Assembly (NCBI GenBank): GCA_016210485.1
Contig: JACQUD010000061.1
Coordinates: 1 to 58,691 of the forward strand
Direction: 5' to 3'
Source: Chloroflexota bacterium
GTDB lineage: Bacteria; Chloroflexota; Dehalococcoidia; JACQUD01
Length of the DNA: 58,691 bases
This document shows positions 2,728 through 18,067 of this stretch, in pieces (positions within the stretch are counted from its first letter, which is position 1; the number at the start of each line of letters is the position of its first letter). Both the position numbers and the translations under genes were made by a program. The notes under the pieces were generated by a model. It saw only the letters and a program-made list of their open reading frames with translations. It was not told the origin of the DNA and made no database searches.

Positions 2728-2739
2728 CGTGTCGGCGCC

Positions 2740-4755: not shown

Positions 4756-4848
4756 CTTACGGCCGCTGGGTCAGATACTGTAGATAAGCCGCCACCGCTG
4801 TCTCCTTTTGATTTCCCGCCTGTTTCCTAATTGTCAGGCTTTGCCGTT

Positions 4849-4887
4849 GGATGTGCGCCCGAGCCTTTGCAGGCCGGGCGCACATCC
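4849..4887 (-). terminator. Perfect 13-bp GC-rich hairpin between the beta-propeller gene stop and the next gene. It may be a terminator or an mRNA-stabilising stem.
   Basis: The arms ggatgtgcgcccg (4849-4861) and cgggcgcacatcc (4875-4887) flank a 13-nt loop. There is no clean T-tract on the minus strand, so its function as a terminator is uncertain. Confidence 0.4.
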
Positions 4888-4895
4888 TCGTACTG

Positions 4896-6464: not shown

Positions 6465-6506
6465 TTGATTTGTCTCCTTATCTCAAAGATTCCTCTTTGG
6501 TCCAAG

Positions 6507-6518
6507 TACCCTTGGGTA
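6507..6518. promoter_or_regulatory. Candidate operator, an inverted repeat TACCC-TT-GGGTA that resembles CsoR-type copper-repressor sites
   Basis: tacccttgggta lies about 45 nt upstream of the 6464 start codon, in the divergent spacer between two copper-protein gene sets. Confidence 0.3.
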
Positions 6519-6947
6519 GACCAACGTTCTCTCGTTACATTCCACCTCCCGCCGGTTGCCGGCAGCACCCCAGGGCCAGGGATTCTCCTGCCTAGCGTCG
6601 CCCATATGTGAGACTCATCACGATATACACCGACCATACTCTATGGCAGTCCTGCCGCCAATTGAACACCACAAATGGTAGTCCCGCAGCCAGAAGAGGG
6701 TAGGGTGGCGCTGTGTCCGCCTACCAGAACGGGTGGGCGGAGCTTTGGGAATAGCGAGTAGTGCTGGCACCGCGGAGTCAGCGGGCCACCCGAAGGCAAA
6801 AGGCGTTTGCTGGTGCCCACCCTCTGGGGCCGATAGGCGCTGGAGCACGACTACGAATAATGGTAGGGCATCGCGCCCCGAATCCCACCTCTTATGGTGG
6901 TGATTATCGCCCATCTCATGCCATATACTCGTGCCCAAAGGAGTCAA

Positions 6948-7499
6948 ATGAAGTTACTGCGTGTGCGCTACCTGATACTCGGCCTCGCTGGCGTTTCCGT
7001 CCTTCTGGCAGCGTGCTCGTCCGGCGCGGGAGAAAAAGAACAGCCGCAAGCGACGGCCACGCCTACCCCGACGGCGGTCCGGGCTGTCGCGCCCACGGCA
7101 ACGGCGACCGCCGCGAGGACCCCCACCGCCCCGCCGCTGGCTGCCACTCCTACTCCGACGGCGACGGCAGGCAAGACTCCAACCTCTGTTGTACAGACGC
7201 CGTCATCGTCGGCATCGGGACAGGAGATCCAGGTGCTCATGAGAAACAACGTGTTTCCCGAAGAGATCCACGTGAAAGCGGGGACAAAAGTTGTCTTCGT
7301 GGTCATCAACGAGTCTGATAACGATGAGCACAGCTTCGAGTTTCCAGATTTCGGGCTCACCTATAAGGTGCAAGCCGGTGAGACCATAAGGATCGAGTGG
7401 CAGGCCCCCAACAGCAAGGGTGTGTGGGACGCGGGGTGCTTTCTTACCCAGCCTGGCGGGGTGCACGACGGGATGGAAGGTCTCTTGATCATCGAGTAG
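6948..7499 (+). CDS. Cupredoxin (type-1 copper) lipoprotein with a Thr/Pro/Ala-rich linker
   Basis: ORF track gives 6894..7499. I trimmed it to the ATG at 6948, which is preceded by AAGGAG and gives 'MKLLRVRYLILGLAGVSVLLAAC'. The C-terminus 'EHSFEF...GCFLTQPGGVHDGMEG' fits the His/Cys/His/Met ligand pattern. Confidence 0.75.
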   Translation: MKLLRVRYLILGLAGVSVLLAACSSGAGEKEQPQATATPTPTAVRAVAPTATATAARTPTAPPLAATPTPTATAGKTPTSVVQTPSSSASGQEIQVLMRNNVFPEEIHVKAGTKVVFVVINESDNDEHSFEFPDFGLTYKVQAGETIRIEWQAPNSKGVWDAGCFLTQPGGVHDGMEGLLIIE

Positions 7500-7518
7500 C
7501 AAGATAGGAGGGTGTTGA

Positions 7519-7911
7519 GTGAAGAGCATGAGATCTGTCGTTGGACTGCTGTCGCTTGCAGGACTTCTAGCGTTGGCTGCGTGCGGTTCCGGTGGGGGCG
7601 AGGCCAAGAACCCGCCGCCCCAGGCCCAGGGGATGGCGCAGGAGGTCAAGGTAGATATGGGCGACTATTTCTATGAGCCAAGCCAGCTCACCATCAAGGC
7701 GGGGCAGGTGCATTTCGTCCTGACCAACGTGGGCAAGACGGCCCACCGCTTCGCCATTACCGGAAATGGCGTGAAAGTGAGCAGTCGGAACGTGGGCGCC
7801 GGACGGGAAGGGACCCTGGATGTGGAACTGGCCCCGGGCACATACAAGATGGGGTGCACCCTTGGCGACCACGAGGCGCGGGGCTCGGTTGGACAGATCG
7901 TTGTCCAGTAG
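7519..7911 (+). CDS. Small cupredoxin (plastocyanin/azurin-like) lipoprotein with Ser at the expected axial-Met position
   Basis: 130 aa with lipobox 'LLALAAC'. It contains 'KTAHRFAI' and 'YKMGCTLGDHEARGSVGQIVV' (Cys-x4-His, then Ser where related proteins have Met). An AGGAGGG lies upstream of the GTG start. Confidence 0.8.
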   Translation: MKSMRSVVGLLSLAGLLALAACGSGGGEAKNPPPQAQGMAQEVKVDMGDYFYEPSQLTIKAGQVHFVLTNVGKTAHRFAITGNGVKVSSRNVGAGREGTLDVELAPGTYKMGCTLGDHEARGSVGQIVVQ

Positions 7912-8404
7912 CCGGGTCCCGGCCGCCCCGGCCCGCAGTCAACCCTATAAAGGGCGAGGAACAGGCAAAGCGCAGGCGCCCGGGTCCGGCGACGGATGGG
8001 GGGTCCAGGACATCCGCTGGCCAGCTATCTGGGCAGGGTACGCAGTCGCAACGCTGGTCACTCTGGCCGCCGGATTGCCCTTGCTGGCAGCCAAAGACAG
8101 CACCTGGCTCCTGGCCGCCTCAGGCTCGGCGGGCCTGCTGGCAGGCGGACTGGTTACAGGAAAGCGAGCAGGTCGGCAATTGGCCCTTCTCAACGGGGCT
8201 CTCCTTTGCGTGATGTACAACGTAAGCGTGGCAGGGGCGTTCTTCATCGGGTCCATACTCCAACTGCTTCCTGAACCGCTGCCTGGGCTCCCCCAGGGGG
8301 ACTCCACGTTCTTCTTCGCTTGGCCGCTGGCCCAGTTCGTGTTGGCGGTCGCGGGCGCCGCCGTAGGCAGCCGTATGTCAGTGAAGCGGAAGACGGGAGG
8401 GTAG
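7889..8404 (+). CDS. Small 4-TM membrane protein of unknown function
   Basis: The ORF is open from 7820 (ATG inside the upstream gene). In-frame TTG codons at 7889 and 7901 are more plausible starts, so the start is uncertain. Four hydrophobic segments are present ('WAGYAVATLVTLAAGLPLLAA' ... 'WPLAQFVLAVAGAAVG'). Confidence 0.5.
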   Translation: MDRSLSSSRVPAAPARSQPYKGRGTGKAQAPGSGDGWGVQDIRWPAIWAGYAVATLVTLAAGLPLLAAKDSTWLLAASGSAGLLAGGLVTGKRAGRQLALLNGALLCVMYNVSVAGAFFIGSILQLLPEPLPGLPQGDSTFFFAWPLAQFVLAVAGAAVGSRMSVKRKTGG

Positions 8405-8408
8405 GCAA

Positions 8409-9809
8409 GTGCCCCCAGATGTTCCCCTGATAAACGACCGCCTGGTATTGTGGGTGGTGGCAGAGCTTCATCTGCTGTTTGCGGCCTTCGTCCTGGGGGC
8501 GCCCATCTTCATCGTTATCTGTGAATATCTGGGCCTCAAGACCAGGGATGAACGATACGAGAGGCTGGCCAAGGAGACAATGAAGATTGTGGCCATCGCC
8601 TACAGTCTCACAGCCTTGTTTGGTGGCGCTATGACCTTCGTGCTGGTGGGGAAGTACCAGGAGTTCTCTAACTTCATCTTTCAGCGTTTCTATCCGATCT
8701 TCGGCCTCTATGCTTTGCTGTTGCTCGCGGAGTCCGGCCTTATGTATGTCTACTGGTACACCTGGGACGCCCTGGCAGGGCGAAAGCGCTGGCACATCAG
8801 CATCGGCGTTCTCCTCAATGTCCTGGGTACGCTGGTCATGTTCTTGATGAATGGGGTGGGCAGCTTCATGCTGACGCCTCCCGACTCTCCGGCGACGGCT
8901 ACTGTCTGGCAGTCGCTCAACAACGCCACCTGGACCGGACTGAACCTGCACCGGTTCGTGGCCAACATTTCGTTCGGCGGGTTCATGGTGGCGCTGTTCG
9001 CCGCCCTCATGTTCCTCACCAGCAAGAAAGAAGACGACAGGGCGTTCTACGATTGGATGGGCTACATCGGAAATTTCATCGGCGTAGCGGCCCTGGTAGT
9101 CCTGCCAGTGGCAGGGTATATCTACACCAAGGAGATATTCGCCTATGACGCCACCATAAGCACGCTTCTGATGGCGGACAAGCTGGCCTGGTTCTTCGTG
9201 ATGCAAGGTATCCTGGTGGGCTTCCTGTTCCTCGGAGCAGTGTACTACATGTGGTTGAGCATCCAGCGCATCGAAGGGGGCGCCCGCTTCCGCACCTATA
9301 TCCGCGGCGCCATCTGGGCCTGCCTGGTGGGACTCGCCGTCTGGCTGGTACCGCAGAGCTTCCTGCCATCCCTTACCGCCGAGCCAAGCGGCCCCATATC
9401 GGAGGTGACCATCCCCGAAAAGACGATCTTCCTGGGACTGATGCCGGCCAAGGGTCTGGCGGTGAGCGCAATAGTGGTGGTGACCGCCTTTGTGTATTTT
9501 CTGTATCGGCAGGCCATCGCTACCGGCAAGATGGCGTGGGGGCGCATAGATGTCAAGGCGCAACTTGTCCTTACGTTCCTGCCGGCCGTAGCGGTCTTCA
9601 CTATGGCCTTCATGGGCCCCATCCGTGAGATGGCCAGAGGCCAGTGGCACATCTTCCAGTTCATGCCCGACAAGACTCCTTACTCCTTCATCACGCCGCT
9701 AGGGTACACAGCTATCGTGGCCGGGGCCATAACCATTATTTTCTTTCTGCTGATGGGCGCCATCTTCTGGTTGGGCTTCAAGGTCGGCCACCAGAAGGAA
9801 ACTACGTAG
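8409..9809 (+). CDS. Cytochrome bd oxidase subunit I (CydA)-like polytopic membrane protein, with no CydB partner nearby
   Basis: 466 aa with about 12-14 hydrophobic segments. The N-terminus 'LVLWVVAELHLLFAAFVLGAPIF' resembles CydA helix 1 with its heme-ligand His. The GTG start follows GGGAGGG. This family call is made from memory of CydA sequences and has not been checked with an HMM. Confidence 0.65.
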   Translation: MPPDVPLINDRLVLWVVAELHLLFAAFVLGAPIFIVICEYLGLKTRDERYERLAKETMKIVAIAYSLTALFGGAMTFVLVGKYQEFSNFIFQRFYPIFGLYALLLLAESGLMYVYWYTWDALAGRKRWHISIGVLLNVLGTLVMFLMNGVGSFMLTPPDSPATATVWQSLNNATWTGLNLHRFVANISFGGFMVALFAALMFLTSKKEDDRAFYDWMGYIGNFIGVAALVVLPVAGYIYTKEIFAYDATISTLLMADKLAWFFVMQGILVGFLFLGAVYYMWLSIQRIEGGARFRTYIRGAIWACLVGLAVWLVPQSFLPSLTAEPSGPISEVTIPEKTIFLGLMPAKGLAVSAIVVVTAFVYFLYRQAIATGKMAWGRIDVKAQLVLTFLPAVAVFTMAFMGPIREMARGQWHIFQFMPDKTPYSFITPLGYTAIVAGAITIIFFLLMGAIFWLGFKVGHQKETT

Positions 9810-9822
9810 AGGAGACAGCGGG

Positions 9823-10413
9823 TTGCGTATTATCCTAATAGTAGTTGCGGTTATCGCGGCCATTTGGGTCGCTCCCGTTCTTATCTCTGAGGACTCAGGG
9901 CTTAAGTTCGGTGTCTCCTACCGGGTGCTGTTCACCCTGTTCGTCTTGTTTGCCGGCTTCCTGTTCTATCTGCTACGCGCTCCAGAGTGGAAGCCATTCA
10001 AATCGACGCCAAGGGCGGTGGGAAGCGTGGGGTTGGTCTTCGTCGCTGTCATCGGAGCTATCGTCCTCCTGGCCAACGTGTCTCCCCAGTTTGCCTCTGA
10101 GGGCCAGGCGTCCACGGGAGCATCCTCTGGGGAAAGGGGAAAGGCGGCGTTCTTCGACCCCGGCGTGGGCTGTTTTCTGTGCCACACGGTGGCGACTTCT
10201 GGTGGAACCAGGGGCCCCGATCTCACCCATGTGGCCACAGTGGCAGCCAACCGGCGGCCGGGCCTATCCGTCGAGGACTATTTGAAGGAATCTCTCTTCA
10301 GCCCCGGCGCCTACGTGGTGGCTACGTTCGATAACATCATGCCGCCCTTTGGCGATAGGCTGTCCCCCGAGCAACTCAAGGATATCCTGGCGTACCTGAT
10401 GTCATTGAGATAG
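9823..10413 (+). CDS. Membrane-anchored monoheme c-type cytochrome
   Basis: 196 aa with three N-terminal hydrophobic helices. It has a single 'CFLCH' heme-binding motif and a downstream 'NIMPPFG' (Met-Pro typical of class I cytochrome c sixth ligand). Confidence 0.8.
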   Translation: MRIILIVVAVIAAIWVAPVLISEDSGLKFGVSYRVLFTLFVLFAGFLFYLLRAPEWKPFKSTPRAVGSVGLVFVAVIGAIVLLANVSPQFASEGQASTGASSGERGKAAFFDPGVGCFLCHTVATSGGTRGPDLTHVATVAANRRPGLSVEDYLKESLFSPGAYVVATFDNIMPPFGDRLSPEQLKDILAYLMSLR

Positions 10414-10434
10414 GTCCCCTTTTCGGAAGGCAAG

Positions 10435-11622
10435 ATGTACCGACGCATCCTGGTCCCGGTGGACAATTCCCCTTACTCCGATTTTTCGGTGAGGCTGGCC
10501 GTGGACCTCGGCCGGAAGTTGGGGGCGCACCTAGTGGGCTGCCATGTATATGCCGCCCGCTTGCATGACGACCGGTTCCGGCAGATGGAAACGGGCTTGC
10601 CAGGCCGGTACCAGGAGAAGGACGAGCTCCGGCGGCAACGACAGGTGCACGACTCCCTCATCACCAAAGGGCTGCAGCTCATCTCTGATTCTTACCTCGA
10701 CCCCTTTGAGGCAAGGTGCCGGCAGGCCGGCGTCCCCTGCCAGCGCCGCGTGGTGGAGGGGACTAATTACGTAGAGCTGGCAAAGGAGGTCGAAAACAGC
10801 GGCTGCGACCTCGTCACGATGGGCATCCGGGGCCTGGGGGCGGTGGAAGAAAGCGTCATCGGCAGCGTGTGCGAACGCGTGGTGAGGAGGATCCGGTGCG
10901 CTGTGCTAGTAGCGAAGAACGACTCGCCCCTGGGCGGAAACATCGTGGCGGCCGTGGATGGTAGCTCGCGCTCCCTATCAGGCCTGAGGGCGGCCATAGC
11001 TCTGGGGAAGGTTTTTGGCGCTTCGGTAGAGGTGGTGGCCGTCTTCGACCCGTACTTTCACGGCATGGCATTCCGCAGCCTGGCCGGCGTCCTCTCGGAG
11101 GAGGCGGGTAAGGTATTCCGGTTCCGCGAGCAGGAGCGCCTCCACGACGAGATCATTCACGATGGGCTGCGCAAGTTGTACGAGTCTCACCTGGAGACGG
11201 CCGTGACGTTCGCCCGGTCGCAGGGCCTGGTGGTCACGTCCGCTCTTCTTCCGGGGAAGCCATTCCAGAAGGTGCTCCACTATATTCGGGAGCGGCGGGC
11301 CTCTCTTCTGGTGGTAGGACGGTTCGGTGCTCACTGCACAGGCACTACTGATATAGGTAGCACCGCAGAGAACCTGTTGCGGCTGGCTCCTTGCCACGTG
11401 CTCATCGCAAACGGGGACGAGCAGCCGGCTGTCGCCGACCTGCTTGTGAAGGAGGCTTCTCCCATACCTTGGACCGGGGAAGCTGAGGCGAAGTTGCAAC
11501 ACGTGCCTCCCTTCGCCCGAGGCATGGCCCGCAACGCCATAGACGACTACGCGAGACGCCATGGGCACGCCGAGGTGACGCCGGAAGTGATGGACAAAGC
11601 CCGAGGGGAAATGGGGATGTGA
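10435..11622 (+). CDS. Tandem universal stress protein (USP) domains fused to a C-terminal PCP_red-like (BchB C-terminal) domain
   Basis: 395 aa. 'MYRRILVPVDNSPYS...' and 'NIVAAVDGSSRS...' are the two USP cores. The tail 'IPWTGEAEAKLQHVPPFARGMARNAIDDYARRHGHAEVTPEVMDKAR' matches the W-T-x-E-A-E-x-x-L-x-x-(I/V)-P-F-F-V-R pattern of the ChlB/BchB C-terminus. Confidence 0.8.
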   Translation: MYRRILVPVDNSPYSDFSVRLAVDLGRKLGAHLVGCHVYAARLHDDRFRQMETGLPGRYQEKDELRRQRQVHDSLITKGLQLISDSYLDPFEARCRQAGVPCQRRVVEGTNYVELAKEVENSGCDLVTMGIRGLGAVEESVIGSVCERVVRRIRCAVLVAKNDSPLGGNIVAAVDGSSRSLSGLRAAIALGKVFGASVEVVAVFDPYFHGMAFRSLAGVLSEEAGKVFRFREQERLHDEIIHDGLRKLYESHLETAVTFARSQGLVVTSALLPGKPFQKVLHYIRERRASLLVVGRFGAHCTGTTDIGSTAENLLRLAPCHVLIANGDEQPAVADLLVKEASPIPWTGEAEAKLQHVPPFARGMARNAIDDYARRHGHAEVTPEVMDKARGEMGM

Positions 11623-11705
11623 CGTCGGTCCTGGTCCTGGCAGCGGGCTCGGCCAAGGGACTTTGGACAGGCGCGGCAACGGAATATGTGGAGGAGGGCA
11701 GACCT

Positions 11706-12602
11706 ATGGCAAGGAAGCACAGAGGCATTGCGGCTGATGGCGGCTCTGATATCGTGGCCCAGGTAGTCGCTCAGGGCGACCGCCTGGGGTCGCGGATGGC
11801 GCTCGTTCGGCACAAGATCGCGGTCATGAGCGGGAAGGGAGGGGTGGGCAAGAGCTCCATAACCGCCAACCTGGCGGCAGTCCTGGCCTCCCAGGGATAC
11901 CAGGTGGGAATTCTGGACGCCGATATCAACGGCCCTGCTATAGCCAAGATGCTGGGCGTGCGTGCGCAAAACCTGTCCCTAAGCGAGAACGCCATCCTAC
12001 CGGCCCTCGGGCCCCGCAGCATCAAAGTCATGTCCATGGACCTGCTCTTGCCCGGGGACAAGACGCCGGTGATCTGGGAAGCTCCCACCCAACAGAACTC
12101 GTTCGTCTGGCGAGGGACGATAGAGGCGAGCGCCTTGAGGGAGTTCCTGGCCGACACCGCTTGGGGCGAGTTAGACTTCCTGCTGGTAGACCTACCACCT
12201 GGAACGTACACTTTTCCGACCCTGGAGCAACTGGTGCCTGACCTTGTGGGCATCATTGTTACCATTCCGTCCGAAGTTTCACATCTGGTGGTCAAGCGAT
12301 TCATCAGCCTGGCTCAGGAGTTGGGGACTCTGCTGGCGGGTCTGGTGGAGAACATGGCCGGCTATACTTGCCCGCACTGTGGCAAGGTGGGCGAGCTTTT
12401 CTCTGCCGCAGGCGATGGCGAGAGAATGGTGGCGGAGATGGGCATATCTTACCTGGGCAGCATACCCTTCGACGCCAGGCTTTCGGCATCCGCTGACTGG
12501 GGCATCCCTTTTGCCCTGGAGCATGGCGGGTCTCCTGCGGGACAGGCCCTGGCCCATGTGGCAGCCAAAGTCAAGGAGTTCGTTGGAGAGTCCCGAAGAT
12601 GA
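11706..12602 (+). CDS. Mrp/NBP35 (ApbC) family P-loop ATPase / Fe-S cluster carrier
   Basis: It contains 'KIAVMSGKGGVGKSS' (deviant Walker A) and 'YTCPHCG' (the CxxC of the family). The ATG at 11706 is preceded by GGAGGAGGG. A longer form from the GTG at 11619, overlapping the upstream stop as GTGA, is also possible. Confidence 0.85.
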   Translation: MARKHRGIAADGGSDIVAQVVAQGDRLGSRMALVRHKIAVMSGKGGVGKSSITANLAAVLASQGYQVGILDADINGPAIAKMLGVRAQNLSLSENAILPALGPRSIKVMSMDLLLPGDKTPVIWEAPTQQNSFVWRGTIEASALREFLADTAWGELDFLLVDLPPGTYTFPTLEQLVPDLVGIIVTIPSEVSHLVVKRFISLAQELGTLLAGLVENMAGYTCPHCGKVGELFSAAGDGERMVAEMGISYLGSIPFDARLSASADWGIPFALEHGGSPAGQALAHVAAKVKEFVGESRR

Positions 12603-13039
12603 AGCTTTCTTGCGGCAATTGCGCACAGGCGATGCAACTCGTGAAAGCGACAGATCTGGCCGATGGATCGATGTCCATCATCTTCGGTTGTGCTTCCTGC
12701 GGGAATCGCGTCTCCCTTTTGACCAATCCAGGAGAGACTCAACTGGTCAGAGCCCTCGATGTCCAGATCGGTGGCCGGACTGTGCCCCCAGAACCGATGG
12801 GACTAGTGAGGAGCGCTCTTGCTCGACAGCGTGACGACGCCTTTGTCTCGCAGTCGGACGTTCCCCAGCCCAAGGAAGGGGTTATCTGGACCGAGGACGC
12901 TTTGAGGCGGCTGGAGAATGTGCCCGCTTTCGTTAGGGATATGGCGCGGAAGTCCATCGAGAGATACGCTATGGAAAAGGGCTGTCATCAGATCACCCCT
13001 GAGGTGATGGACCTGGCCAGGAAGGCGACCGGCGGATGA
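12599..13039 (+). CDS. Small zinc-ribbon protein with a C-terminal PCP_red-like domain
   Basis: 146 aa. The motifs 'CGNC...CASCGN' form a 4-Cys ribbon. The tail is 'VIWTEDALRRLENVPAFVRDMARKSIERYAMEKGCHQITPEVMDLAR'. It has ATGA overlaps with both neighbouring genes. Confidence 0.75.
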   Translation: MKLSCGNCAQAMQLVKATDLADGSMSIIFGCASCGNRVSLLTNPGETQLVRALDVQIGGRTVPPEPMGLVRSALARQRDDAFVSQSDVPQPKEGVIWTEDALRRLENVPAFVRDMARKSIERYAMEKGCHQITPEVMDLARKATGG

Positions 13040-14316
13040 GAGATTCCTCGTTGGGGAAGAGCGGGTCGGTTGAGCGCGGACCAGACTCACCGTCGTACCA
13101 TGGATTGCCCGAAGTCCCCACGCGTCCCGAGATCGTCTCCTGGAACGTTACCAGGCGATGCAATCTATCGTGTCCCCATTGCTACCTGAACGCCGGTCTG
13201 CCAGCGGAGCGGGAACTGACAACCCAGGAGGGCCTGCGATTAGTAGACGAGATGGCTGCCATCGGCACCAGGATGCTCATCCTCAGCGGGGGCGAGCCTC
13301 TGTTGAGAAGCGACCTCTTCCAGATCGCGGCGCGAGCCTCCGGGGTGGGGATGTCCGTGGTTCTGGGGAGCAACGGGACCCTGCTCTCTCTGGAGGTAGC
13401 TCGGCATCTCTCGGCCGCCGGGGTGAAGGGGGTTGGGATCAGCCTTGATTCATTAACTCCCGAACGGCATGATGCCTTCCGTGGGGTTGCCGGGGCCTGG
13501 AAGGCAGCGCTGAAAGGATTGGACTCTTGCCGCCAGGCGGGTCTGCCAGTGCTCATTCAAATGTCCTTGTTTGACTGGAATTACAGCGAGATTGACGACA
13601 TGGTCCGTTTCGCGCACGATCGCGGTGCTGCGGGTTTCAATCTCTATTTCCTGGTTTGCTCGGGCAGAGGGGAAGCTCTTACCGACATCGGTCCCGACCA
13701 GTACGAAGAAGCGTTGGAGACCGTGGTGAAAGCCCAGGCTCGAAACCCTCAGATCATGGTGAGAGTCCGCTGCGCTCCCTATGTGACCAGAGTGGCACAT
13801 CAACTAGGTCATCCCTCGTCTGCCGGTTTCGGATGCATGGCTGGGATCAGCTACGGTCGGATAACCCCGGAGGGCGATCTGACTCCCTGCCCTTACTTGC
13901 CTCTATCTGTTGGCAACGTCGGGCAGCAGCCGCTCGCCCATCTGTGGTGGGATTCCAGTCTGCTGGGAGACTTGAGATTGGGTGGACTGAGGGGCCGTTG
14001 TGGCCACTGCCAGTATGGCGACTCTTGCCGAGGATGTCGGGCCAGGGCCTGGTCCGACACCGGTGACTTGCTCCAGGAAGATCCCTGGTGTCGCTACGAT
14101 GGACAAACTGCCCCATCGCCGTTGCTCGGAGGAGTGGTCTGGAGCAGTGAGGCTGAGGAGCGACTGAAGCGGGTGCCCTTTTTCCTGAGGAATGGGATCA
14201 GAGCAGCGGTAGCGGCCTACGCCAAGAGACAGGGGCAGGCCACCATAACTGTCGGCCTGATGGAGGAGGTACGCGCCAAGATGCGGCCAGGAGGCCCCAC
14301 TCAGACAGTTCAGTAG
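13036..14316 (+). CDS. Radical SAM/SPASM enzyme of NirJ/AhbC/AhbD-like type with a C-terminal PCP_red-like domain
   Basis: 426 aa. 'VSWNVTRRCNLSCPHCY' is the CX3CX2C motif, and 'CGHCQYGDSCRGCRARA' is the SPASM/twitch Cys cluster with a NirJ-family-like 'GCRARA'. The tail is 'VVWSSEAEERLKRVPFFLRNGIRAAVAAYAKRQGQATITVGLMEEVR'. Confidence 0.8.
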   Translation: MRDSSLGKSGSVERGPDSPSYHGLPEVPTRPEIVSWNVTRRCNLSCPHCYLNAGLPAERELTTQEGLRLVDEMAAIGTRMLILSGGEPLLRSDLFQIAARASGVGMSVVLGSNGTLLSLEVARHLSAAGVKGVGISLDSLTPERHDAFRGVAGAWKAALKGLDSCRQAGLPVLIQMSLFDWNYSEIDDMVRFAHDRGAAGFNLYFLVCSGRGEALTDIGPDQYEEALETVVKAQARNPQIMVRVRCAPYVTRVAHQLGHPSSAGFGCMAGISYGRITPEGDLTPCPYLPLSVGNVGQQPLAHLWWDSSLLGDLRLGGLRGRCGHCQYGDSCRGCRARAWSDTGDLLQEDPWCRYDGQTAPSPLLGGVVWSSEAEERLKRVPFFLRNGIRAAVAAYAKRQGQATITVGLMEEVRAKMRPGGPTQTVQ

Positions 14317-14622
14317 GCGAAGCTTTTTGCCCGGCTTGGCGCTGCGTTGTCGAACGCGAGCATCCCGGTGAAGCTCTAGGGGCGGTGAAGGAGCAGGCTG
14401 TTCGCTTCAACACCCTGCACAGGGAGTGCGGGAACAGCATCCAGATGCCCAAGTGGTGTGCCCAGTGCGAGTTGCGGCGAGTAGAAGGAGGTGAACATAG
14501 GGCTGGCGATATCAGACAGACAGCGAGTGGCTTCACCCCAAGTCGCTACCTCAGACGTAACGGCGATGAGGCTGCCACTCACCAATGCCGCCCCAGACTG
14601 CTAGCTGGAGGCTGAGTTCAAA

Positions 14623-14662
14623 GGTAGCGCGGGTTCTGTCTATTGTTACCGATGCTCCACCA
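14623..14662 (+). repeat. Copy 1 of a 40-nt repeat ending in GCTCCACCA
   Basis: ggtagcgcgggttctgtctattgttaccgatgctccacca. It is 29/40 identical and of equal length to the copy at 15466-15505 (hand alignment). Confidence 0.6.
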
Positions 14663-14681
14663 GGGAAGGACTCGAACCTTC
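14657..14681 (-). pseudogene. tRNA 3'-end fragment (T-arm plus acceptor 3' strand) with no matching 5' half
   Basis: The minus strand reads GAAGG-TTCGAGT-CCTTC-CCTGGTG-G. I found no complementary CACCAGG within 120 nt upstream. Confidence 0.45.
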
Positions 14682-14730
14682 ATGACGGCGACTAAATACT
14701 GAGATTGAAGGTCAGGTCAAAGTCCTTGAG

Positions 14731-14758
14731 AGTTCTACTTATTGATACCCTAGCTCCA
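14731..14758 (+). repeat. 28-nt partial copy of the 40-nt repeat
   Basis: agttctacttattgataccctagctcca is 26/28 identical to 15475-15502. It is followed by a degenerate restart, 'agttctaccttta'. Confidence 0.6.
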
Positions 14759-14890
14759 GTTCTACCTTTATTCCACCGTTGATTTCCAAAATTGTCCACA
14801 AAAATGTTTGCTAAGTTGCAAATGAGCAACCCAACCCAAGGCAATATTGTTTATTAATTTTTGCGAATGACTGAGCCAAAAGGAAGCAAT

Positions 14891-14917
14891 TTGACCGTGA
14901 AACCAGCACCGTATAAT
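14891..14917 (+). promoter_or_regulatory. Sigma70-like promoter of the islet gene
   Basis: TTGACC (14891-14896), a 15-nt spacer and TATAAT (14912-14917), about 40 nt upstream of the ATG at 14959. The spacer is short. Confidence 0.35.
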
Positions 14918-14958
14918 ATTTGTAGCATGTCAATAAATCACACGACGAGGAGAATGGT

Positions 14959-15399
14959 ATGAAGAAGAGATTTGTCTTGTCTGCGCTGGCCAGCGCCGTG
15001 ACGGTGCTCATTCTCAATGGAGTCATCTACGCTCTGTTTTATGGTGACTTCTTGAAAAACAATTCCGGACTGTCTGTAGAATTGTTTGAAAAGGTGCAAA
15101 GACCTGTAGACCAAACCAATATTCCTGCCACCATTCTTTCGATGCTCGTTATCGGATGCCTTATTACTACCGTTGTCCATTGGGTAAAAGCAAAAACGTT
15201 TATCAATGGTTTAAAGTTCGGGTTCATTTTCGCTGTCCTCATGGTTGGCTCTGTAAATCTCGGGCTGCTCGCCACCACCTATTATTACTCAACTAAATCA
15301 GGCATCATCGATATTTTCGTGGGGGCGGCGACAATTGCAATCGGCGGCGGGGTTGCCGCCTTGATAATGGGTGGGGGCACAAAGCCTGCAAAGGCCTGA
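14959..15399 (+). CDS. Small 4-TM membrane protein (possibly DUF1761-like) encoded in low-GC DNA
   Basis: 146 aa with a GAGGAG RBS. Hydrophobic segments include 'LSALASAVTVLILNGVIYALFYG', 'ILSMLVIGCLITTVV', 'FIFAVLMVGSVNLGLL' and 'FVGAATIAIGGGVAALIMG'. Confidence 0.7.
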   Translation: MKKRFVLSALASAVTVLILNGVIYALFYGDFLKNNSGLSVELFEKVQRPVDQTNIPATILSMLVIGCLITTVVHWVKAKTFINGLKFGFIFAVLMVGSVNLGLLATTYYYSTKSGIIDIFVGAATIAIGGGVAALIMGGGTKPAKA

Positions 15400-15465
15400 A
15401 CATAACCGGAACATTACCCCACCGTAACGGAGACGAACCAGTGGTCAAGAGACGATAGTAAACGT

Positions 15466-15505
15466 GGTAGAAAAAGTTCTACCTATTGATACCCTGGCTC
15501 CACCA
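15466..15505 (+). repeat. Copy 2 of the 40-nt repeat ending in GCTCCACCA
   Basis: ggtagaaaaagttctacctattgataccctggctccacca. It starts with a 7-bp hairpin, GGTAGAA/TTCTACC. Confidence 0.6.
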
Positions 15506-15586
15506 CTCGCAACGCGAATGCTGTCTGGTCAGGTATTATGCGGAGAGGTCTAGGGCGAGCTCAAAAGTTCTTGCTTCTGTACGGTA

Positions 15587-15611
15587 TGGTGGGCCAGACG
15601 GGATTCGAACC
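15587..15611 (-). pseudogene. tRNA 3'-end fragment with encoded CCA
   Basis: The minus strand reads GGTTCGAATCCCGTCTGGCCCACCA. The upstream sequence (GAAGG) does not pair with the CCCGT T-stem strand, and no GGGCCAG 5' acceptor strand is present. Confidence 0.5.
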
Positions 15612-15739
15612 TTCGGTTACCCCATGGTTATACAATAGTCCTTATCAATAGGGGCCGGGCACCCTCAAGGTTTCCAAATACCTGCAAGCCGCGCAATGTC
15701 GGGATCCAATAAGAGATCGTTGCCGAGTTTACATAGTGA

Positions 15740-15919
15740 CTAGCGGAGTAGCCGGGGAAGGACGAATAGCGAGGAGATGACTAAAATCCCGCCCAGGGCC
15801 ATGAGGGCTAGGCCCAGGAGAGGCTGGCGGCTCTCGGCAGCGCCCACCCAGACCCTCCACCCGGCTAGGCCCGCCGCTATCCCCAGGGGGAACAAGGCCC
15901 CGATTAACCACCTCTTCAT
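15740..15919 (-). CDS. Unlisted 59-aa two-TM mini-protein
   Basis: It is below the ORF-track length cut-off. The reverse complement gives MKRWLIGALFPLGIAAGLAGWRVWVGAAESRQPLLGLALMALGGILVISSLFVLPRLLR*. A GAGGAGG lies about 12 nt upstream, and an extended -10 (TGCTATAAT, 15950-15955) sits further upstream. Confidence 0.5.
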   Translation of the reverse strand: MKRWLIGALFPLGIAAGLAGWRVWVGAAESRQPLLGLALMALGGILVISSLFVLPRLLR

Positions 15920-16128
15920 GAGTGGAACTTGCCTCCTCGCTTTTGCCCCATTATAGCACGGGCGAGTGACGCTATGTATAGTTACTACGGCTGCGGTAAG
16001 GTTCGACGAGCTTAGTCGAGCCGCTCAGGATGAGGCATCAGAGTTAGTCAGGATTTCTCACTCCTGGTGATCCTGTATAGACAGGTGATGAGATAGAAAA
16101 ACGTTACTAAAATCCTGCCTAAGTGGTC

Positions 16129-16156
16129 TTGACAGCCCGATGGAAAGCCTTATAAT
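16129..16156 (+). promoter_or_regulatory. Near-consensus sigma70 promoter
   Basis: TTGACA (16129-16134), a 16-nt spacer and TATAAT (16151-16156). Confidence 0.6.
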
Positions 16157-16164
16157 TATGCGGA

Positions 16165-16248
16165 ATGGCTACGATATTCAGATCAGCCTTGAGCCACCCT
16201 GACGCTGGGGTGGCTTTTTTGTGTTCGGTATCTAGAAAGGTGGTATAG
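16165..16248 (+). CDS. Candidate leaderless 27-codon uORF spanning the leader terminator
   Basis: The ATG lies 8 nt after the -10 box. It encodes MATIFRSALSHPDAGVAFLCSVSRKVV*, and its TAG ends 1 nt before the ATG at 16250. Confidence 0.25.
   Translation: MATIFRSALSHPDAGVAFLCSVSRKVV
16192..16220 (+). terminator. Intrinsic terminator-like hairpin in the leader of the DUF47/PiT operon
   Basis: The 8-bp stem AGCCACCC / GGGTGGCT has an 8-nt loop and is followed by TTTTTT. Confidence 0.6.
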
Positions 16249-16249
16249 C

Positions 16250-16876
16250 ATGGTTGGGCATTTCTTACACCAGCGCGTCAATTTCTTCGATTTGCTGGAG
16301 AAGAGCTCGACTAATCTGCTCCAAGCCGCCAAGACACTTGTCGATTTAATGGAAGACTATCCCAGCCTTCAGCTGAAAGTGGCCGAGATCATGGAGCTGG
16401 AGCATCGTGGCGATACGCTGACACACCAGATTATGGAGCAACTTCATCTGATCTTTGTTACCCCCATAGATCGAGAGGACATCGTGTTGCTGACACAGCG
16501 GCTGGACGATGTCTTGGATGCCATCGAGGCAGGTGTTCAACTCTTGATCCTCTATAAAATTGAGCGACCCACAGAGCGGGCCAGGGAGCAGGCACGGCTC
16601 ATTCTCCGAGTGGTGGAGGCAGTCACCCTGGCTATGCAGCAGCTCCGTCAGCATCGCAAGTTGCGCCAGCTCCTGACTCACTGTGTAGAGATCAATACCC
16701 TGGAAAACGAGGCCGACCAGACCTATCGCCAGGCCCTGGCCGAGCTTTTCCAGGACTCCATGCCCATCATCGACATTATCAAGTGGCGGGAGATTTATGA
16801 GCTGTTCGAATCGGCGGTGGACAGGGCCGAGGACGTGGCCGATGTCCTGGAGGGCGTGGTCTTGAAGTATGCCTGA
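16250..16876 (+). CDS. DUF47 (PhoU-like, TIGR00153-type) phosphate-transport accessory protein
   Basis: 208 aa and all-helical. 'ELEHRGDTLTHQI...TPIDREDI' and 'LENEADQTYRQAL...' are the duplicated PhoU-like motifs. It is paired with a PiT transporter, which is the usual arrangement. Confidence 0.8.
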   Translation: MVGHFLHQRVNFFDLLEKSSTNLLQAAKTLVDLMEDYPSLQLKVAEIMELEHRGDTLTHQIMEQLHLIFVTPIDREDIVLLTQRLDDVLDAIEAGVQLLILYKIERPTERAREQARLILRVVEAVTLAMQQLRQHRKLRQLLTHCVEINTLENEADQTYRQALAELFQDSMPIIDIIKWREIYELFESAVDRAEDVADVLEGVVLKYA

Positions 16877-17056
16877 GTCCAGAGAACCAGAGCGTACACG
16901 CTTCCATAATGGGTGAGCTATCTGTTCTTCGCCGAGCCGTCGCCGTCCTGCTCTCGAGCGCTCGTTTTTGTGCCTCGCTAGCGCTTGGCACTGCTCTCGT
17001 GGCAAGAACGCCTATTGACTCTCAGCCGGTGAAGCTCGAAGCTGGGGGAGGAGTAC

Positions 17057-18067
17057 ATGGATACTAACAGTCTGTTCTTTATTGTCTCCATCATCATTGT
17101 GGCGTTGGTCTTTGACTTCACCAACGGTATGCATGATGCCGCGAACTCTATTTCCACCATTGTCTCCACCAAAGTGCTAACACCGCGTCAAGCTGTCCTG
17201 TGGGCCGCATTCTTTAACTTCGTCGCGTTTTTGATATTCGGCACTGCGGTGGCCAAGACGATCGGCAGTGGAATGATAAACATTCAGATGGTGACCACAA
17301 CGGTGGTCCTTGCCGGACTCCTGGGCGCTATAGCCTGGAACATCATTACCTGGTACTTGGGGCTTCCCAGCAGCTCGTCCCACGCCCTGATCGGAGGCTA
17401 TGCCGGAGCGGCCGTGGCCAAGGGTGGGTTGGAAGTTATCATCGCCGCTGGCTGGTACAAGACGTTGGTCTTCATTGTCCTGGCGCCCGTGATTGGGCTG
17501 ATCCTGGGAGCTCTGCTCGCGACTACAGTCACATGGATCTTATACTGGCGAAAAGTCAGCTTTGCCGCTGTGAACAAGTGGTCGAGAGTCGTGCAGCTAT
17601 TCTCCGCCGCGCTGTACAGCCTGGGGCACGGGGGGAACGATGCGCAGAAAACTATGGGCATCATCACCAGCCTACTTTTCGCCGGGGGGCTGATAACTGA
17701 GTTCAAAATACCTTTGTGGGTTGTTTTGAGTGCGCACGCCGCAATCGCTTTAGGCACCCTAAGCGGCGGCTGGAGAATCGTCAAGACAATGGGTCAGAAG
17801 ATCACCAAGTTGAGGCCGGTTGACGGTTCTTGTGCGGAGACGTCCGCTGCTGCCAGTATTTTCCTGGCCACGCATTTGGGTATTCCGGTTAGCACCACCC
17901 ATGTCATAACTGGAGCCATATCGGGGGTAGGTTCGGCCAGACGCTTGAAGGCAGTGAACTGGGGTGTGACTCGTCGTATTGTATGGGCCTGGGTCCTCAC
18001 CATACCCATGGCTGCCCTCATAGGTAGCGTCATATATACACTTATCAGGATTCTGGCCCAAGCCTGA
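17057..18067 (+). CDS. Inorganic phosphate transporter, PiT family
   Basis: 336 aa. 'FDFTNGMHDAANSISTIVST' and 'GHGGNDAQKTMGII' are the duplicated PHO4 signatures. Confidence 0.9.
   Translation: MDTNSLFFIVSIIIVALVFDFTNGMHDAANSISTIVSTKVLTPRQAVLWAAFFNFVAFLIFGTAVAKTIGSGMINIQMVTTTVVLAGLLGAIAWNIITWYLGLPSSSSHALIGGYAGAAVAKGGLEVIIAAGWYKTLVFIVLAPVIGLILGALLATTVTWILYWRKVSFAAVNKWSRVVQLFSAALYSLGHGGNDAQKTMGIITSLLFAGGLITEFKIPLWVVLSAHAAIALGTLSGGWRIVKTMGQKITKLRPVDGSCAETSAAASIFLATHLGIPVSTTHVITGAISGVGSARRLKAVNWGVTRRIVWAWVLTIPMAALIGSVIYTLIRILAQA

What the first reader, a model, noticed from the sequence alone, without database searches (positions are those of the whole stretch)
10435..14316. Three consecutive unrelated proteins share the same C-terminal PCP_red (BchB C-terminal-like) domain around an Mrp/NBP35 ATPase
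Seen in sequence: the tails align without gaps. They are 'IPWTGEAEAKLQHVPPFARGMARNAIDDYARRHGHAEVTPEVMDKAR' (tandem USP), 'VIWTEDALRRLENVPAFVRDMARKSIERYAMEKGCHQITPEVMDLAR' (zinc ribbon) and 'VVWSSEAEERLKRVPFFLRNGIRAAVAAYAKRQGQATITVGLMEEVR' (radical SAM/SPASM). Established: this W-T-x-E-A-x-x-x-L-x-x-(I/V)-P-F-F-V-R module is the C-terminal domain of the DPOR subunit BchB/ChlB, where it contacts the tetrapyrrole substrate. BchL, the DPOR reductase, belongs to the same SIMIBI ATPase class as Mrp/NBP35, and both use a bridging 4Fe-4S cluster on a Cys pair (here 'CPHC'). NirJ/AhbC/AhbD-type radical SAM enzymes modify tetrapyrroles. Inference: either the shared domain is a docking tag that brings three partners to one hub (the ATPase or a tetrapyrrole carrier), or the module tailors a heme-type cofactor for the adjacent bd-like protein and cytochrome c. 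Heme d of bd oxidases is a chlorin whose biosynthesis is not settled. Both interpretations are speculative.
Basis: partly seen in the sequence, partly recalled or inferred. Interest (0 to 1): 0.8.

Follow-up and report, generated by a model that had tools for sequence, protein, structure and literature searches.

The report
Shared-domain helper cassette for bd-like oxidase
Four neighbouring genes (a radical-SAM enzyme related to haem synthases, an iron-sulfur-cluster ATPase, a zinc-ribbon protein and a stress-protein-like ATP binder), three of them carrying the same small helical domain known from a chlorophyll enzyme, form an undescribed cassette found in many bacterial phyla, usually right beside an enigmatic cytochrome-bd-like membrane protein, and most likely make or deliver its haem cofactor.

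Summary
Three of four consecutive genes (10435-14316, + strand) end in a PF08369 PCP_red domain, scoring 52-64 bits against a cutoff of 32.5. The domain is predicted to fold like the solved standalone PCP_red structures.

The four genes are conserved neighbours across Chloroflexota, Bacteroidota, Rhodothermales, Gemmatimonadota, Vicinamibacteria, Poribacteria, Methylomirabilota and Proteobacteria. Radical-SAM genes with the tail form one clade. 20 of 31 such loci have a cassette partner nearby, against 0 of 49 tail-less AhbD/NirJ2-type loci (p = 2e-11).

In metagenome loci anchored on the zinc-ribbon gene, the usual order is Mrp, ZnR-PCP, ferredoxin, USP-PCP, rSAM-PCP, CydA-like, cytochrome c. 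A CydA-like gene is present in 13 of 13 loci that hold the rSAM. HemY, HemH and HemQ genes sit beside the cassette in several lineages.

My best reading is a dedicated haem-cofactor maturation cassette for an OR-N-type bd-like oxidase, built around an AhbD/NirJ2-like enzyme. I could not determine what PCP_red itself does. The claim that it contacts the pigment in BchB is not supported by what I could read. Mrp as an obligatory docking hub is weakly supported. I found no paper describing the cassette.

The parts
10435..11622 (+). Tandem USP protein with a C-terminal PCP_red domain (USP1 about 10435-10917, USP2 about 10942-11439, PCP_red 11470-11604)
   Evidence: PF00582 scores 140 bits in 2 stretches. 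PF08369 scores 57.5 bits at aa 346-390. Both USP domains keep the G-2x-G-9x-G-S ATP-binding motif. Orthologues occur in L002, L089 and L090.
11619..12602 (+). Mrp/NBP35-type P-loop ATPase and Fe-S cluster carrier. The likely true start is the ATG at 11706 (298 aa).
   Evidence: PF10609 scores 250.5 bits. It has the GKGGVGKS Walker A motif and C251-P-H-C254. Homologues are about 295-300 aa. It scores below the MrpORP and ApbC equivalog cutoffs.
12599..13039 (+). Zinc-ribbon protein (4 Cys) joined by a flexible linker to a PCP_red domain (PCP_red 12887-13021)
   Evidence: PF08369 scores 63.7 bits. C5, C8, C31 and C34 and the motif LLTNPGETQLV are invariant in 28 homologues. In the AF2 model the N-domain has pLDDT 82-88, the linker (aa 56-92) is below 50, and the tail is 87-89. 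Foldseek matches NrdR zinc ribbons and 2KRU/2L09.
13036..14316 (+). Radical SAM / SPASM enzyme of the AhbD/NirJ2 kind with a C-terminal PCP_red domain (PCP_red 14140-14274)
   Evidence: PF04055 scores 107 bits, PF13186 27.5 and PF08369 52.1. NirJ2 scores 342 and AhbD 277 bits, both below the 500 cutoff. C42/C46/C49 and 8 further Cys are invariant. The AF2 model has pTM 0.78. Foldseek matches SkfB, PqqE, SuiB and anSME.
8409..9809 (+). CydA-like membrane haem protein (cytochrome bd superfamily, OR-N-like) with no CydB partner. This is the probable client of the cassette.
   Evidence: PF01654 scores 66.6 bits, but only for the N-terminal half (profile positions 3-240 of 418). About 11 TM segments, with His21 and His181. 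It is adjacent to the cassette in most complete loci.
9823..10413 (+). Membrane-anchored monohaem cytochrome c
   Evidence: PF00034 scores 35.6 bits. It has three predicted N-terminal TM segments and one CFLCH motif. It is conserved after the CydA-like gene.
7820..8404 (+). Small membrane protein (DUF3792-like). The true start is probably further downstream, giving about 146 aa.
   Evidence: phmmer hit of 111 bits to the L001 DUF3792 gene. A gene of 91-146 aa sits at the same position in L089 and L090.
7519..7911 (+). Cupredoxin with a signal or lipoprotein-like N-terminus
   Evidence: PF13473 scores 44.5 bits and PF00127 24.6. Conserved in L001, L089 and L090.
6894..7499 (+). Cupredoxin lipoprotein with weak similarity to the NosZ CuA domain
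   Evidence: PF13473 scores 35.9 bits. TIGR04246 scores 31.6 bits against profile positions 488-576.

Best explanation
The four genes are a conserved accessory cassette, usually with a small ferredoxin as a fifth member in other lineages. It serves the haem protein encoded next to it, here an OR-N-type CydA-like protein with its cytochrome c.

Proposed roles:
- The catalytic core is a distinct clade of AhbD/NirJ2-like radical-SAM/SPASM enzymes. It most likely performs oxygen-independent side-chain chemistry on an iron tetrapyrrole. The simplest case is coproheme to haem b, as AhbD does.
- The Mrp/NBP35 ATPase loads the enzyme's three predicted [4Fe-4S] clusters.
- The zinc-ribbon protein, the ferredoxin where present, and the ATP-binding tandem-USP protein are adaptor, electron-transfer or regulatory partners.
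- The PCP_red domain is an autonomously folding three-helix unit on a flexible tether. It is the common interaction module that holds these proteins together, or brings them to a common partner or ligand.

Shown here: the domain content, the fold prediction, the conserved linkage, the separate rSAM clade, and the adjacency to CydA-like and haem-synthesis genes.

Inferred: the substrate, the role of each partner, and what PCP_red binds.
For: 1. Domains: all domain assignments are significant. The rSAM's best families are NirJ2 (342 bits) and AhbD (277 bits), far above peptide maturases such as the mycofactocin maturase (133) or PqqE (111).

2. Separate clade: tail-bearing rSAMs form one clade, apart from archaeal, Firmicute and deltaproteobacterial AhbD/NirJ2 (NJ tree).

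3. Linkage in 80 species-representative genome loci: 20 of 31 tail-bearing rSAMs have a USP, Mrp or ZnR partner in the flank, against 0 of 49 tail-less ones (Fisher p = 2.4e-11). Counts are USP 15, Mrp 14 and ZnR 13.

4. Linkage in 80 metagenome loci anchored on ZnR-PCP: Mrp is present in 61. Among the 30 loci of at least 8 kb, Mrp is in 25, the ferredoxin in 23 and USP in 21. All 13 loci that contain the rSAM (11 non-redundant) also contain a CydA-like gene. In the 9 with the commonest order it directly follows the rSAM, with gaps of -1 or -4 nt where the start is clear.

5. Whole-operon synteny with the window: L089 (a Dehalococcoidales MAG) and L090. The cassette also lies next to CydA-like plus cytochrome c genes in L001, L002 and L004, and an rSAM-PCP plus USP pair does so in L088.

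6. Haem-synthesis genes: HemY homologues beside the rSAM pass the TIGR00562 cutoff (L010 286, L024 237, L034 223, L004 118, against 97.85). L004 adds ferrochelatase, a HemQ-Rieske fusion and GluTR.

7. Precedent: AhbD is known to replace ChdC in some coproporphyrin-pathway bacteria (PMC13564367).

8. PCP_red outside DPOR: it is fused mostly to exactly these partners. Among the 134 best hits, USP occurs in 36, a rubredoxin-like domain in 15 and SPASM/rSAM in 8/6. Single proteins combine two USP domains, five PCP_red copies and a rubredoxin-like domain.

9. Fold: the PCP_red tail is predicted folded and tethered.
Against: - There is no biochemical evidence. The rSAM is below the equivalog cutoffs for AhbD and NirJ2, so its reaction may differ.
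- The cassette is not always beside a CydA-like gene. Poribacteria and Vicinamibacteria loci lack one within 10 kb. L087 and L049 have haem-copper oxidase genes instead. Anammox and Nitrospinaceae carry the tailed rSAM alone.
- L004 encodes a HemQ/ChdC homologue in the same cluster, so a plain coproheme decarboxylase would be partly redundant there.
- The window itself has no haem-synthesis gene among the ORFs I scanned.
- Nothing shows what USP or the zinc ribbon do.
- The tails group by protein type, not by genome. They are therefore old, specialised paralogues rather than interchangeable tags.
Confidence: 0.5

Rival explanations
1. The cassette makes a modified, non-standard haem (for example a chlorin or haem-d-like cofactor, or a partly decarboxylated coproheme) specific to OR-N-type CydA-like oxidases. 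It would not make ordinary haem b.
For: - In the commonest arrangement the CydA-like gene directly follows the rSAM, and all 13 complete metagenome loci hold one.
- The rSAM is a separate clade below the AhbD/NirJ2 cutoffs.
- L004 already encodes a HemQ/ChdC homologue for the ordinary step.
- The haem types of OR-N enzymes are not known.
Against: - The cassette also occurs beside haem-copper oxidase genes with no CydA-like gene within 10 kb (L087, L049), or beside HemY alone (L010, L024).
- No chemistry is known by which this rSAM family would form a chlorin.
- No additional tailoring enzyme is conserved in the cassette.
Confidence: 0.2
2. PCP_red is a docking tag that brings the three proteins to the Mrp/NBP35 ATPase dimer as a hub. 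One variant has Mrp acting like BchL, as an ATP-driven electron donor.
For: - Mrp and ZnR-PCP are nearly always adjacent and often overlap. Mrp is present in 61 of 80 ZnR-anchored loci.
- Mrp has the P-loop and a CxxC pair suited to a bridging cluster.
- The PCP_red tail of the zinc-ribbon protein sits on a roughly 40-residue flexible tether.
Against: - 17 of 31 tail-bearing rSAM loci have no Mrp in the flank. Anammox and Nitrospinaceae rSAMs carry 1-3 PCP_red copies with no partner nearby.
- No Mrp-PCP_red fusion appears in the top 120 Mrp homologues. The apparent L049 fusion covers only half of the ParA profile and looks like a frameshift.
- The similarity of Mrp to BchL/NifH is confined to the P-loop (19.5 and 22.7 bits).
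- I could not establish where PCP_red sits relative to BchL in DPOR.
Confidence: 0.15
3. PCP_red is a small tetrapyrrole-binding or hand-off (carrier) domain. Its copies pass coproheme or haem from the synthase to the apo-protein, much as HemW acts as a haem chaperone.
For: - The domain occurs in every case beside tetrapyrrole enzymes (BchB, and AhbD-like rSAMs).
- It occurs in 2-6 tandem copies and as PCP_red-only proteins directly after the rSAM (L011), which resembles tandem carrier domains.
- It makes sense for rSAMs that have no partner genes nearby.
- Basic residues are conserved (R22 and R26 in alignment A2).
Against: - There is no conserved His, Cys or Met that could ligate haem iron.
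- The BchB helix that touches the pigment lies upstream of PF08369.
- I found no report of a pigment bound to the solved PCP_red domains.
Confidence: 0.2
4. The rSAM is a peptide- or protein-modifying SPASM maturase. It would act on a small neighbouring protein, on the PCP_red domains themselves, or on the CydA-like protein.
For: - The closest solved structures are peptide maturases: SkfB, PqqE, SuiB and anSME.
- Small conserved proteins of unknown function lie in some loci: a 121-aa protein in L004 and a 145-aa protein in L088.
Against: - No AhbD or NirJ structure exists in the PDB, so the structural hits are biased toward peptide maturases.
- Sequence profiles favour the tetrapyrrole enzymes by more than 140 bits.
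- No small-peptide gene is conserved across the loci.
Confidence: 0.05

Closest known systems
AhbD haem synthase (TIGR04545) / NirJ2 (TIGR04055), radical-SAM enzymes of the alternative haem pathway
   Same: It has the radical-SAM CxxxCxxC motif and a SPASM domain with eight further conserved Cys. These are its best-scoring families. [quoted passage not shown]
   Different: It scores 277 and 342 bits against cutoffs of 500 and forms a separate clade. It carries one to three C-terminal PCP_red domains. Its neighbours are USP, Mrp, ZnR, ferredoxin and a CydA-like gene, not AhbA/B/C.
C-terminal PCP_red domain of DPOR subunit BchB/ChlB, and the standalone PCP_red proteins (PDB 2KRU, 2L09 Asr4154)
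   Same: It is the same Pfam family and has the same three-helix fold: TM 0.78 at rmsd 1.0 Å to 2KRU, and TM 0.69 to 2L09.
   Different: No nitrogenase-like core or BchL/BchN was found among the window ORFs scanned. The domain is attached to USP, zinc-ribbon and rSAM proteins in non-phototroph lineages. Its function is unknown even in DPOR.
Mrp/NBP35/ApbC Fe-S cluster carriers, including MrpORP of Desulfovibrio
   Same: It has the PF10609 ATPase core, the deviant Walker A motif GKGGVGKS and a CxxC pair.
   Different: It is the short form of about 298 aa. It scores 256 bits against the MrpORP cutoff of 450 and matches only model positions 2-250 of 365. It scores 162 bits against the ApbC cutoff of 348. 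It is always paired with the ZnR-PCP_red gene.
Cofactor-synthesis genes embedded in respiratory operons (heme d1 nirDLGHJ genes in the nir operon that also encodes cytochrome cd1; CtaA/CtaB next to cox genes; the HemW haem chaperone)
   Same: The logic is the same: a tetrapyrrole-modifying or tetrapyrrole-delivering enzyme is co-encoded with the respiratory haem protein it serves. NirJ is a paralogue of the rSAM here.
   Different: The enzyme set is different, and a shared PCP_red domain is added. The client is an OR-N-type CydA-like protein. The comparison with CtaA/CtaB and HemW rests on my own knowledge and was not tested here.
OR-N family of cytochrome bd-like proteins (Murali et al., bioRxiv 10.1101/2021.01.16.426971)
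   Same: The CydA-like protein keeps only the N-terminal haem-binding core. It has no CydB partner and is co-encoded with cytochrome c. EbdC homologues occur in L004, L086, L117 and L133, as described for OR-N2 operons.
   Different: I did not determine the subfamily. The paper and its supplements do not mention radical SAM, USP or Mrp neighbours.

Membership tests
PF08369 PCP_red domain | Profile score at or above the gathering threshold (32.5 bits) over the full 45-position model | tested here: met
   The three tails score 57.5, 63.7 and 52.1 bits, each over profile positions 1-45 of 45.
PF08369 PCP_red domain | Autonomous three-helix fold as in 2KRU and 2L09 | tested here: met
   In the AF2 model the ZnR tail has pLDDT 87-89. 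Foldseek gives TM 0.78 at rmsd 1.0 Å to 2KRU and TM 0.69 to 2L09. The rSAM tail is predicted as three helices with pLDDT 65-90.
DPOR subunit BchB/ChlB | Nitrogenase-like core preceding PCP_red, reaching the equivalog score | tested here: not met
   TIGR01278 scores only 38-39 bits against a cutoff of 490 and matches only the last 50-60 model positions. No Oxidored_nitro domain was found in the three proteins.
DPOR reductase BchL / NifH | Equivalog-level similarity of the ATPase | tested here: not met
   TIGR01281 scores 19.5 bits against 345 and TIGR01287 22.7 against 394. Only the P-loop region matches.
AhbD haem synthase / NirJ2 | Radical-SAM CxxxCxxC motif plus SPASM cysteines for auxiliary clusters | tested here: met
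   C42/C46/C49 and C246, C267, C285, C322, C325, C331, C334 and C352 are invariant in 20 homologues.
AhbD haem synthase / NirJ2 | Score at or above the curated equivalog cutoff | tested here: not met
   TIGR04055 scores 342 and TIGR04545 277 bits, against cutoffs of 500. The protein falls in a separate clade in the NJ tree.
AhbD haem synthase / NirJ2 | Genomic association with haem-pathway genes | tested here: inconclusive
   HemY is adjacent in L004, L010, L017, L021, L024, L034 and L162. HemH and HemQ are adjacent in L004, and HemQ in L103 and L105. None was found among the window ORFs scanned.
AhbD haem synthase / NirJ2 | SAM-dependent decarboxylation of coproheme to haem b | not testable with these tools
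   This needs an enzyme assay.
Mrp/NBP35/ApbC Fe-S carrier | PF10609 core, deviant Walker A motif and a CxxC pair | tested here: met
   PF10609 scores 250.5 bits against 27.1. GKGGVGKS is at aa 72 and CPHC at aa 251-254.
MrpORP (NF041136) and ApbC (NF008669) equivalogs | Full-length match at or above the cutoff | tested here: not met
   MrpORP scores 256 bits against 450 and matches only model positions 2-250 of 365. ApbC scores 162 against 348.
Universal stress protein, ATP-binding type | PF00582 match and the G-2x-G-9x-G-S/T motif | tested here: met
   PF00582 scores 140 bits in two stretches. The motif is present at aa 130-144 and 295-309.
Canonical cytochrome bd quinol oxidase (CydAB) | Full-length CydA with the Q-loop region, and an adjacent CydB | tested here: not met
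   PF01654 matches only profile positions 3-240 of 418. No CydB-like or second CydA-like ORF is adjacent.
OR-N2 subfamily of bd-like proteins | Operon with several cytochromes c and an EbdC homologue; 14 TM helices | tested here: inconclusive
   The window has one cytochrome c, no EbdC homologue and about 11 TM segments by a crude hydropathy scan. Related loci L004, L086, L117 and L133 do have EbdC homologues. No phylogenetic placement was done.

The most novel reading that the evidence does not exclude
The cassette is the biosynthesis and insertion machinery for a so-far unidentified haem cofactor of OR-N-type bd-like oxidases. PCP_red would be a previously unrecognised tetrapyrrole hand-off domain, shared between chlorophyll (BchB) and haem enzymes. 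If so, the active-site cofactor of these widespread oxidases could be identified by expressing the CydA-like gene with and without the cassette. The origin of chlorin-type haems in the bd superfamily could be approached in the same way.
Probability: 0.2. Interest if true: 0.85.

Novelty: new variant of a known kind. Interest (0 to 1): 0.68.

Why it matters
Bd-like (OR-N) proteins are widespread in nitrite oxidisers, Chloroflexota, Methylomirabilota and many uncultured phyla. Their cofactors and electron donors are unknown.

A cassette that follows them across phyla and is built round a haem-type radical-SAM enzyme gives a concrete handle on how they are matured. It also suggests which genes to co-express to obtain active enzyme.

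It defines a new clade of AhbD/NirJ2-like enzymes. It also gives the first functional context for PCP_red, a domain whose role is unclear even in DPOR. Outside phototrophs, the PCP_red proteins that best match these tails are mostly fused to the same three partner types.

If the enzyme proves to be an oxygen-independent haem synthase, it extends the known anaerobic bypasses of the coproporphyrin pathway to many Gram-negative and uncultured lineages.

Tried and rejected
- **Literature.** Searches for PCP_red/PF08369, and for combinations of bd-like, radical SAM, NirJ, AhbD, USP and NBP35, found nothing describing the cassette. The M. xanthus NmpRSTU paper was a false lead.
- **DPOR structure papers.** Moser 2013 and Bröcker 2010 are not held in the library. 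I could not establish where PF08369 sits in DPOR relative to BchL or the pigment.
- **Mrp-ZnR-PCP_red fusion.** The one candidate (L049, 470 aa) matches only ParA profile positions 2-118 and is probably a frameshift. I rejected it as evidence. There were no fusions among the top 120 Mrp homologues.
- **Within-genome homogenisation of the tails.** This is not seen. The tails cluster by protein type, with identity 0.31 across types within a genome against 0.35 within a type across genomes.
- **Promoter and terminator scan of 6300-15200.** The counts were no better than in shuffled sequence.
- **Structure search of the rSAM model.** It gives only generic SPASM enzymes. No AhbD or NirJ structure exists for comparison.
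- **Multimer prediction.** It is not available with these tools, so the docking hypotheses remain untested.
- **Bias in the architecture survey.** The survey of PF08369 architectures used a profile built from the three window tails. It is therefore biased toward relatives of these tails.

Full report
**What is in the sequence**

On the + strand, nine or ten genes run head to tail from 6894 to 14316. They encode two cupredoxins, a small membrane protein, a CydA-like protein, a membrane-anchored monohaem cytochrome c, and then the four genes of the finding.

- 10435-11622 is a tandem USP (140 bits, two stretches) ending in PCP_red (57.5 bits).
- 11619-12602 is an Mrp/NBP35 ATPase (PF10609, 250.5 bits).
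- 12599-13039 ends in PCP_red (63.7 bits).
- 13036-14316 is Radical_SAM plus SPASM plus PCP_red (52.1 bits).

The PF08369 gathering score is 32.5, and each tail covers the whole 45-position model. The quoted peptides are present. The tails align with only one edge gap and share 14 invariant columns.

Other sequence features:
- Both USP domains keep the ATP-binding motif G-2x-G-9x-G-S.
- Mrp has GKGGVGKS and C251-P-H-C254.
- The small protein has four Cys (C5, C8, C31, C34).
- The CydA-like protein has about 11 TM segments and His21/His181.

The Mrp gene probably starts at 11706, not 11619, because relatives are 298 aa.

**The tail is a real, folded domain**

The tails hit BchB/ChlB chains and the two standalone PCP_red NMR structures 2KRU and 2L09.

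An AF2 model of the zinc-ribbon protein, built on 28 homologues, shows three parts:
- a beta-ribbon-plus-helix N-domain (pLDDT 82-88);
- a disordered linker at aa 56-92;
- a three-helix tail (pLDDT 87-89).

Foldseek matches the tail to 2KRU (TM 0.78, rmsd 1.0 Å) and to 2L09. It matches the N-domain to NrdR-type zinc ribbons.

The N-domain is more conserved than the tail. It carries an invariant LLTNPGETQLV motif.

The rSAM model has pTM 0.78, with a helical tail joined by a short linker. Its nearest solved folds are SPASM enzymes. No AhbD or NirJ structure exists.

**The four genes are a conserved unit**

Neighbourhoods of homologues from long contigs show the same genes next to a CydA-like gene and cytochrome c (L001, L002, L004).

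L089 (a Dehalococcoidales MAG) and L090 reproduce the window's whole operon gene for gene.

I scanned one genome per GTDB species with a profile of the rSAM family and obtained 80 loci. I annotated them with phmmer and hmmsearch. The results:
- 31 rSAMs carry the tail and 49 do not.
- 20 of the 31 tailed loci have at least one USP, Mrp or ZnR partner in the flank, against 0 of 49 tail-less loci (Fisher p = 2.4e-11).
- The tailed rSAMs form one clade in an NJ tree, apart from archaeal, Firmicute and deltaproteobacterial AhbD/NirJ2.

Carriers include Rhodothermales, Bacteroidota, Poribacteria, Vicinamibacteria, Gemmatimonadota, Methylomirabilota/Rokubacteria, Hyphomicrobiales, Chromatiales, Zetaproteobacteria, Nitrospinaceae and anammox Planctomycetota.

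**What it travels with**

A second scan used metagenome contigs anchored on the zinc-ribbon protein. Results:
- Mrp is present in 61 of 80 loci.
- Among the 30 loci of at least 8 kb, Mrp is in 25, a small ferredoxin in 23 and USP in 21.
- The prevailing order is Mrp, ZnR-PCP, ferredoxin, USP-PCP (usually with two PCP_red copies), rSAM-PCP, CydA-like, cytochrome c, and sometimes an EbdC homologue.

All 13 loci that include the rSAM also contain a CydA-like gene. These are 11 non-redundant loci, with rSAM identity of 37-99%. In most, the CydA-like gene starts at or overlaps the rSAM stop.

Murali et al. describe OR-N2 operons as containing several cytochromes c and an EbdC homologue. Their text and supplements do not mention radical SAM, USP or Mrp.

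Haem-synthesis genes are also recurrent neighbours:
- HemY homologues that pass the TIGR00562 cutoff lie next to the rSAM in L004, L010, L024 and L034. L017, L021 and L162 have partial or unscored copies.
- L004 additionally has ferrochelatase, a HemQ-Rieske fusion and GluTR just upstream.

Exceptions exist:
- L087 and L049 have haem-copper oxidase genes and no CydA-like gene.
- L086 has a Nar/Nxr-type molybdoenzyme together with a CydA-like gene.
- Poribacteria and Vicinamibacteria loci have neither.
- Anammox and Nitrospinaceae carry the tailed rSAM alone.

**What the rSAM resembles**

Its best curated families are NirJ2 (342 bits) and AhbD (277 bits). Then come NirJ (201 bits) and AhbC (185 bits). 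Peptide maturases score at most 133 bits. No equivalog cutoff is reached.

Eleven Cys are invariant: three in the radical-SAM motif and eight more. This fits three [4Fe-4S] clusters, as reported for AhbD (reference cited).

AhbD is already known to stand in for ChdC in some coproporphyrin-pathway bacteria (PMC13564367).

The simplest reading is AhbD-type, oxygen-independent propionate chemistry on an iron tetrapyrrole. The separate clade, and the co-encoded HemQ in L004, leave room for a different product.

**What PCP_red does is unresolved**

An exhaustive HMM search with the three tails found 1709 representative clusters at E <= 0.001. Many have 2-6 tandem copies.

Among the 134 best hits, the co-occurring domains are USP (36), a rubredoxin-like domain (15) and SPASM/rSAM (8/6). 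Single proteins combine two USP domains, five PCP_red copies and a rubredoxin-like domain. So, at least among proteins that match this profile, PCP_red outside DPOR lives mainly in the three contexts seen in the window.

The tails group by protein type, not by genome. The three paralogues are therefore old and specialised.

The BchB helix that covers and contacts protochlorophyllide is residues 398-420. PF08369 aligns to about 480-527 of the 536-residue BchB chain 8VQI_B, and to 459-517 of the 525-residue chain 3AEK_B. The primary DPOR structure papers were not available.

The domain has no conserved His, Cys or Met.

Mrp as an obligatory hub is weakly supported. Mrp pairs tightly with ZnR-PCP, but many tailed rSAMs have no Mrp nearby, and no Mrp-PCP_red fusion was found.

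**Verdict**

The finding is real and is not described in the papers I could search.

My best explanation, at confidence 0.5, is a dedicated haem-cofactor maturation cassette for the adjacent OR-N-type CydA-like protein, and in other lineages for other respiratory haem enzymes:
- Its core is a new clade of AhbD/NirJ2-like radical-SAM enzymes.
- A dedicated Fe-S carrier (Mrp) serves that enzyme.
- Zinc-ribbon, ferredoxin and USP partners are tied together by a tethered PCP_red module.

The substrate, the product and the binding partner of PCP_red are inferred, not shown.

The most novel reading still open is that the cassette makes and inserts a non-standard haem for these oxidases, with PCP_red as a tetrapyrrole hand-off domain. 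I put its probability at about 0.2.

Noticed in passing
window 1726-6464, - strand (4896-6464, 2740-4755, 1726-2727): A divergent operon lies upstream of the bd-like operon. It encodes a 522-aa beta-propeller lipoprotein with weak NosZ, L-NosZ and hydrazine-synthase-beta-like hits, a 671-aa protein with a cupredoxin domain, and a tandem rhodanese. A rhodanese, a cupredoxin-domain protein and a roughly 515-aa protein lie in the same divergent position in the Dehalococcoidales MAG L089. This operon may encode the electron-donating enzyme of the CydA-like/cytochrome c chain.
   Followed up: partly
L004 5720-6760: A HemQ/ChdC (Chlor_dismutase) domain is fused to a Rieske [2Fe-2S] domain. It sits in one cluster with ferrochelatase, HemY and the cassette.
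   Followed up: partly
L009 9941-12031; L015; L008; L011 1397-2353; P0288: PCP_red occurs as tandem arrays. The anammox and Planctomycetota rSAMs carry 2-3 copies. A 318-aa protein made only of four PCP_red copies follows the rSAM in a zetaproteobacterial MAG. P0288 combines two USP domains, five PCP_red copies and a rubredoxin-like domain.
   Followed up: partly
L092-L169 (for example L131 8877-20338): A small ferredoxin of about 81 aa is a regular fifth member of the cassette in most lineages (45 of 80 ZnR-anchored loci). It is absent from the window's version.
   Followed up: partly
L087 12978-13352: A standalone Nitro_FeMo-Co (NifX/NafY-like) gene lies 2 kb from the cassette in a Chloroflexota MAG. 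MrpORP proteins carry this domain at their C-terminus (that point is from my own knowledge).
   Followed up: no
L086 1-8892: In a Chloroflexota MAG, a CydA-like gene and two cytochrome c genes are followed by a Nar/Nxr-type molybdopterin enzyme (1183 aa), NarH-like and NarJ-like genes and an EbdC homologue. A USP gene and the tailed rSAM come after these.
   Followed up: no
window 14000-18000: GC content drops to 0.53-0.54, against about 0.60-0.63 elsewhere, directly after the cassette. The stretch holds a 146-aa membrane protein, a PhoU_div (DUF47) gene and a PHO4-type phosphate transporter.
   Followed up: no
window 11619-11706 and 12599-12640: Gene-start ambiguities. Automatic calls give Mrp 298 aa (start at 11706) and ZnR 132 aa. 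The ZnR call would remove the invariant C5/C8, so the 146-aa start at 12599 is preferred.
   Followed up: yes
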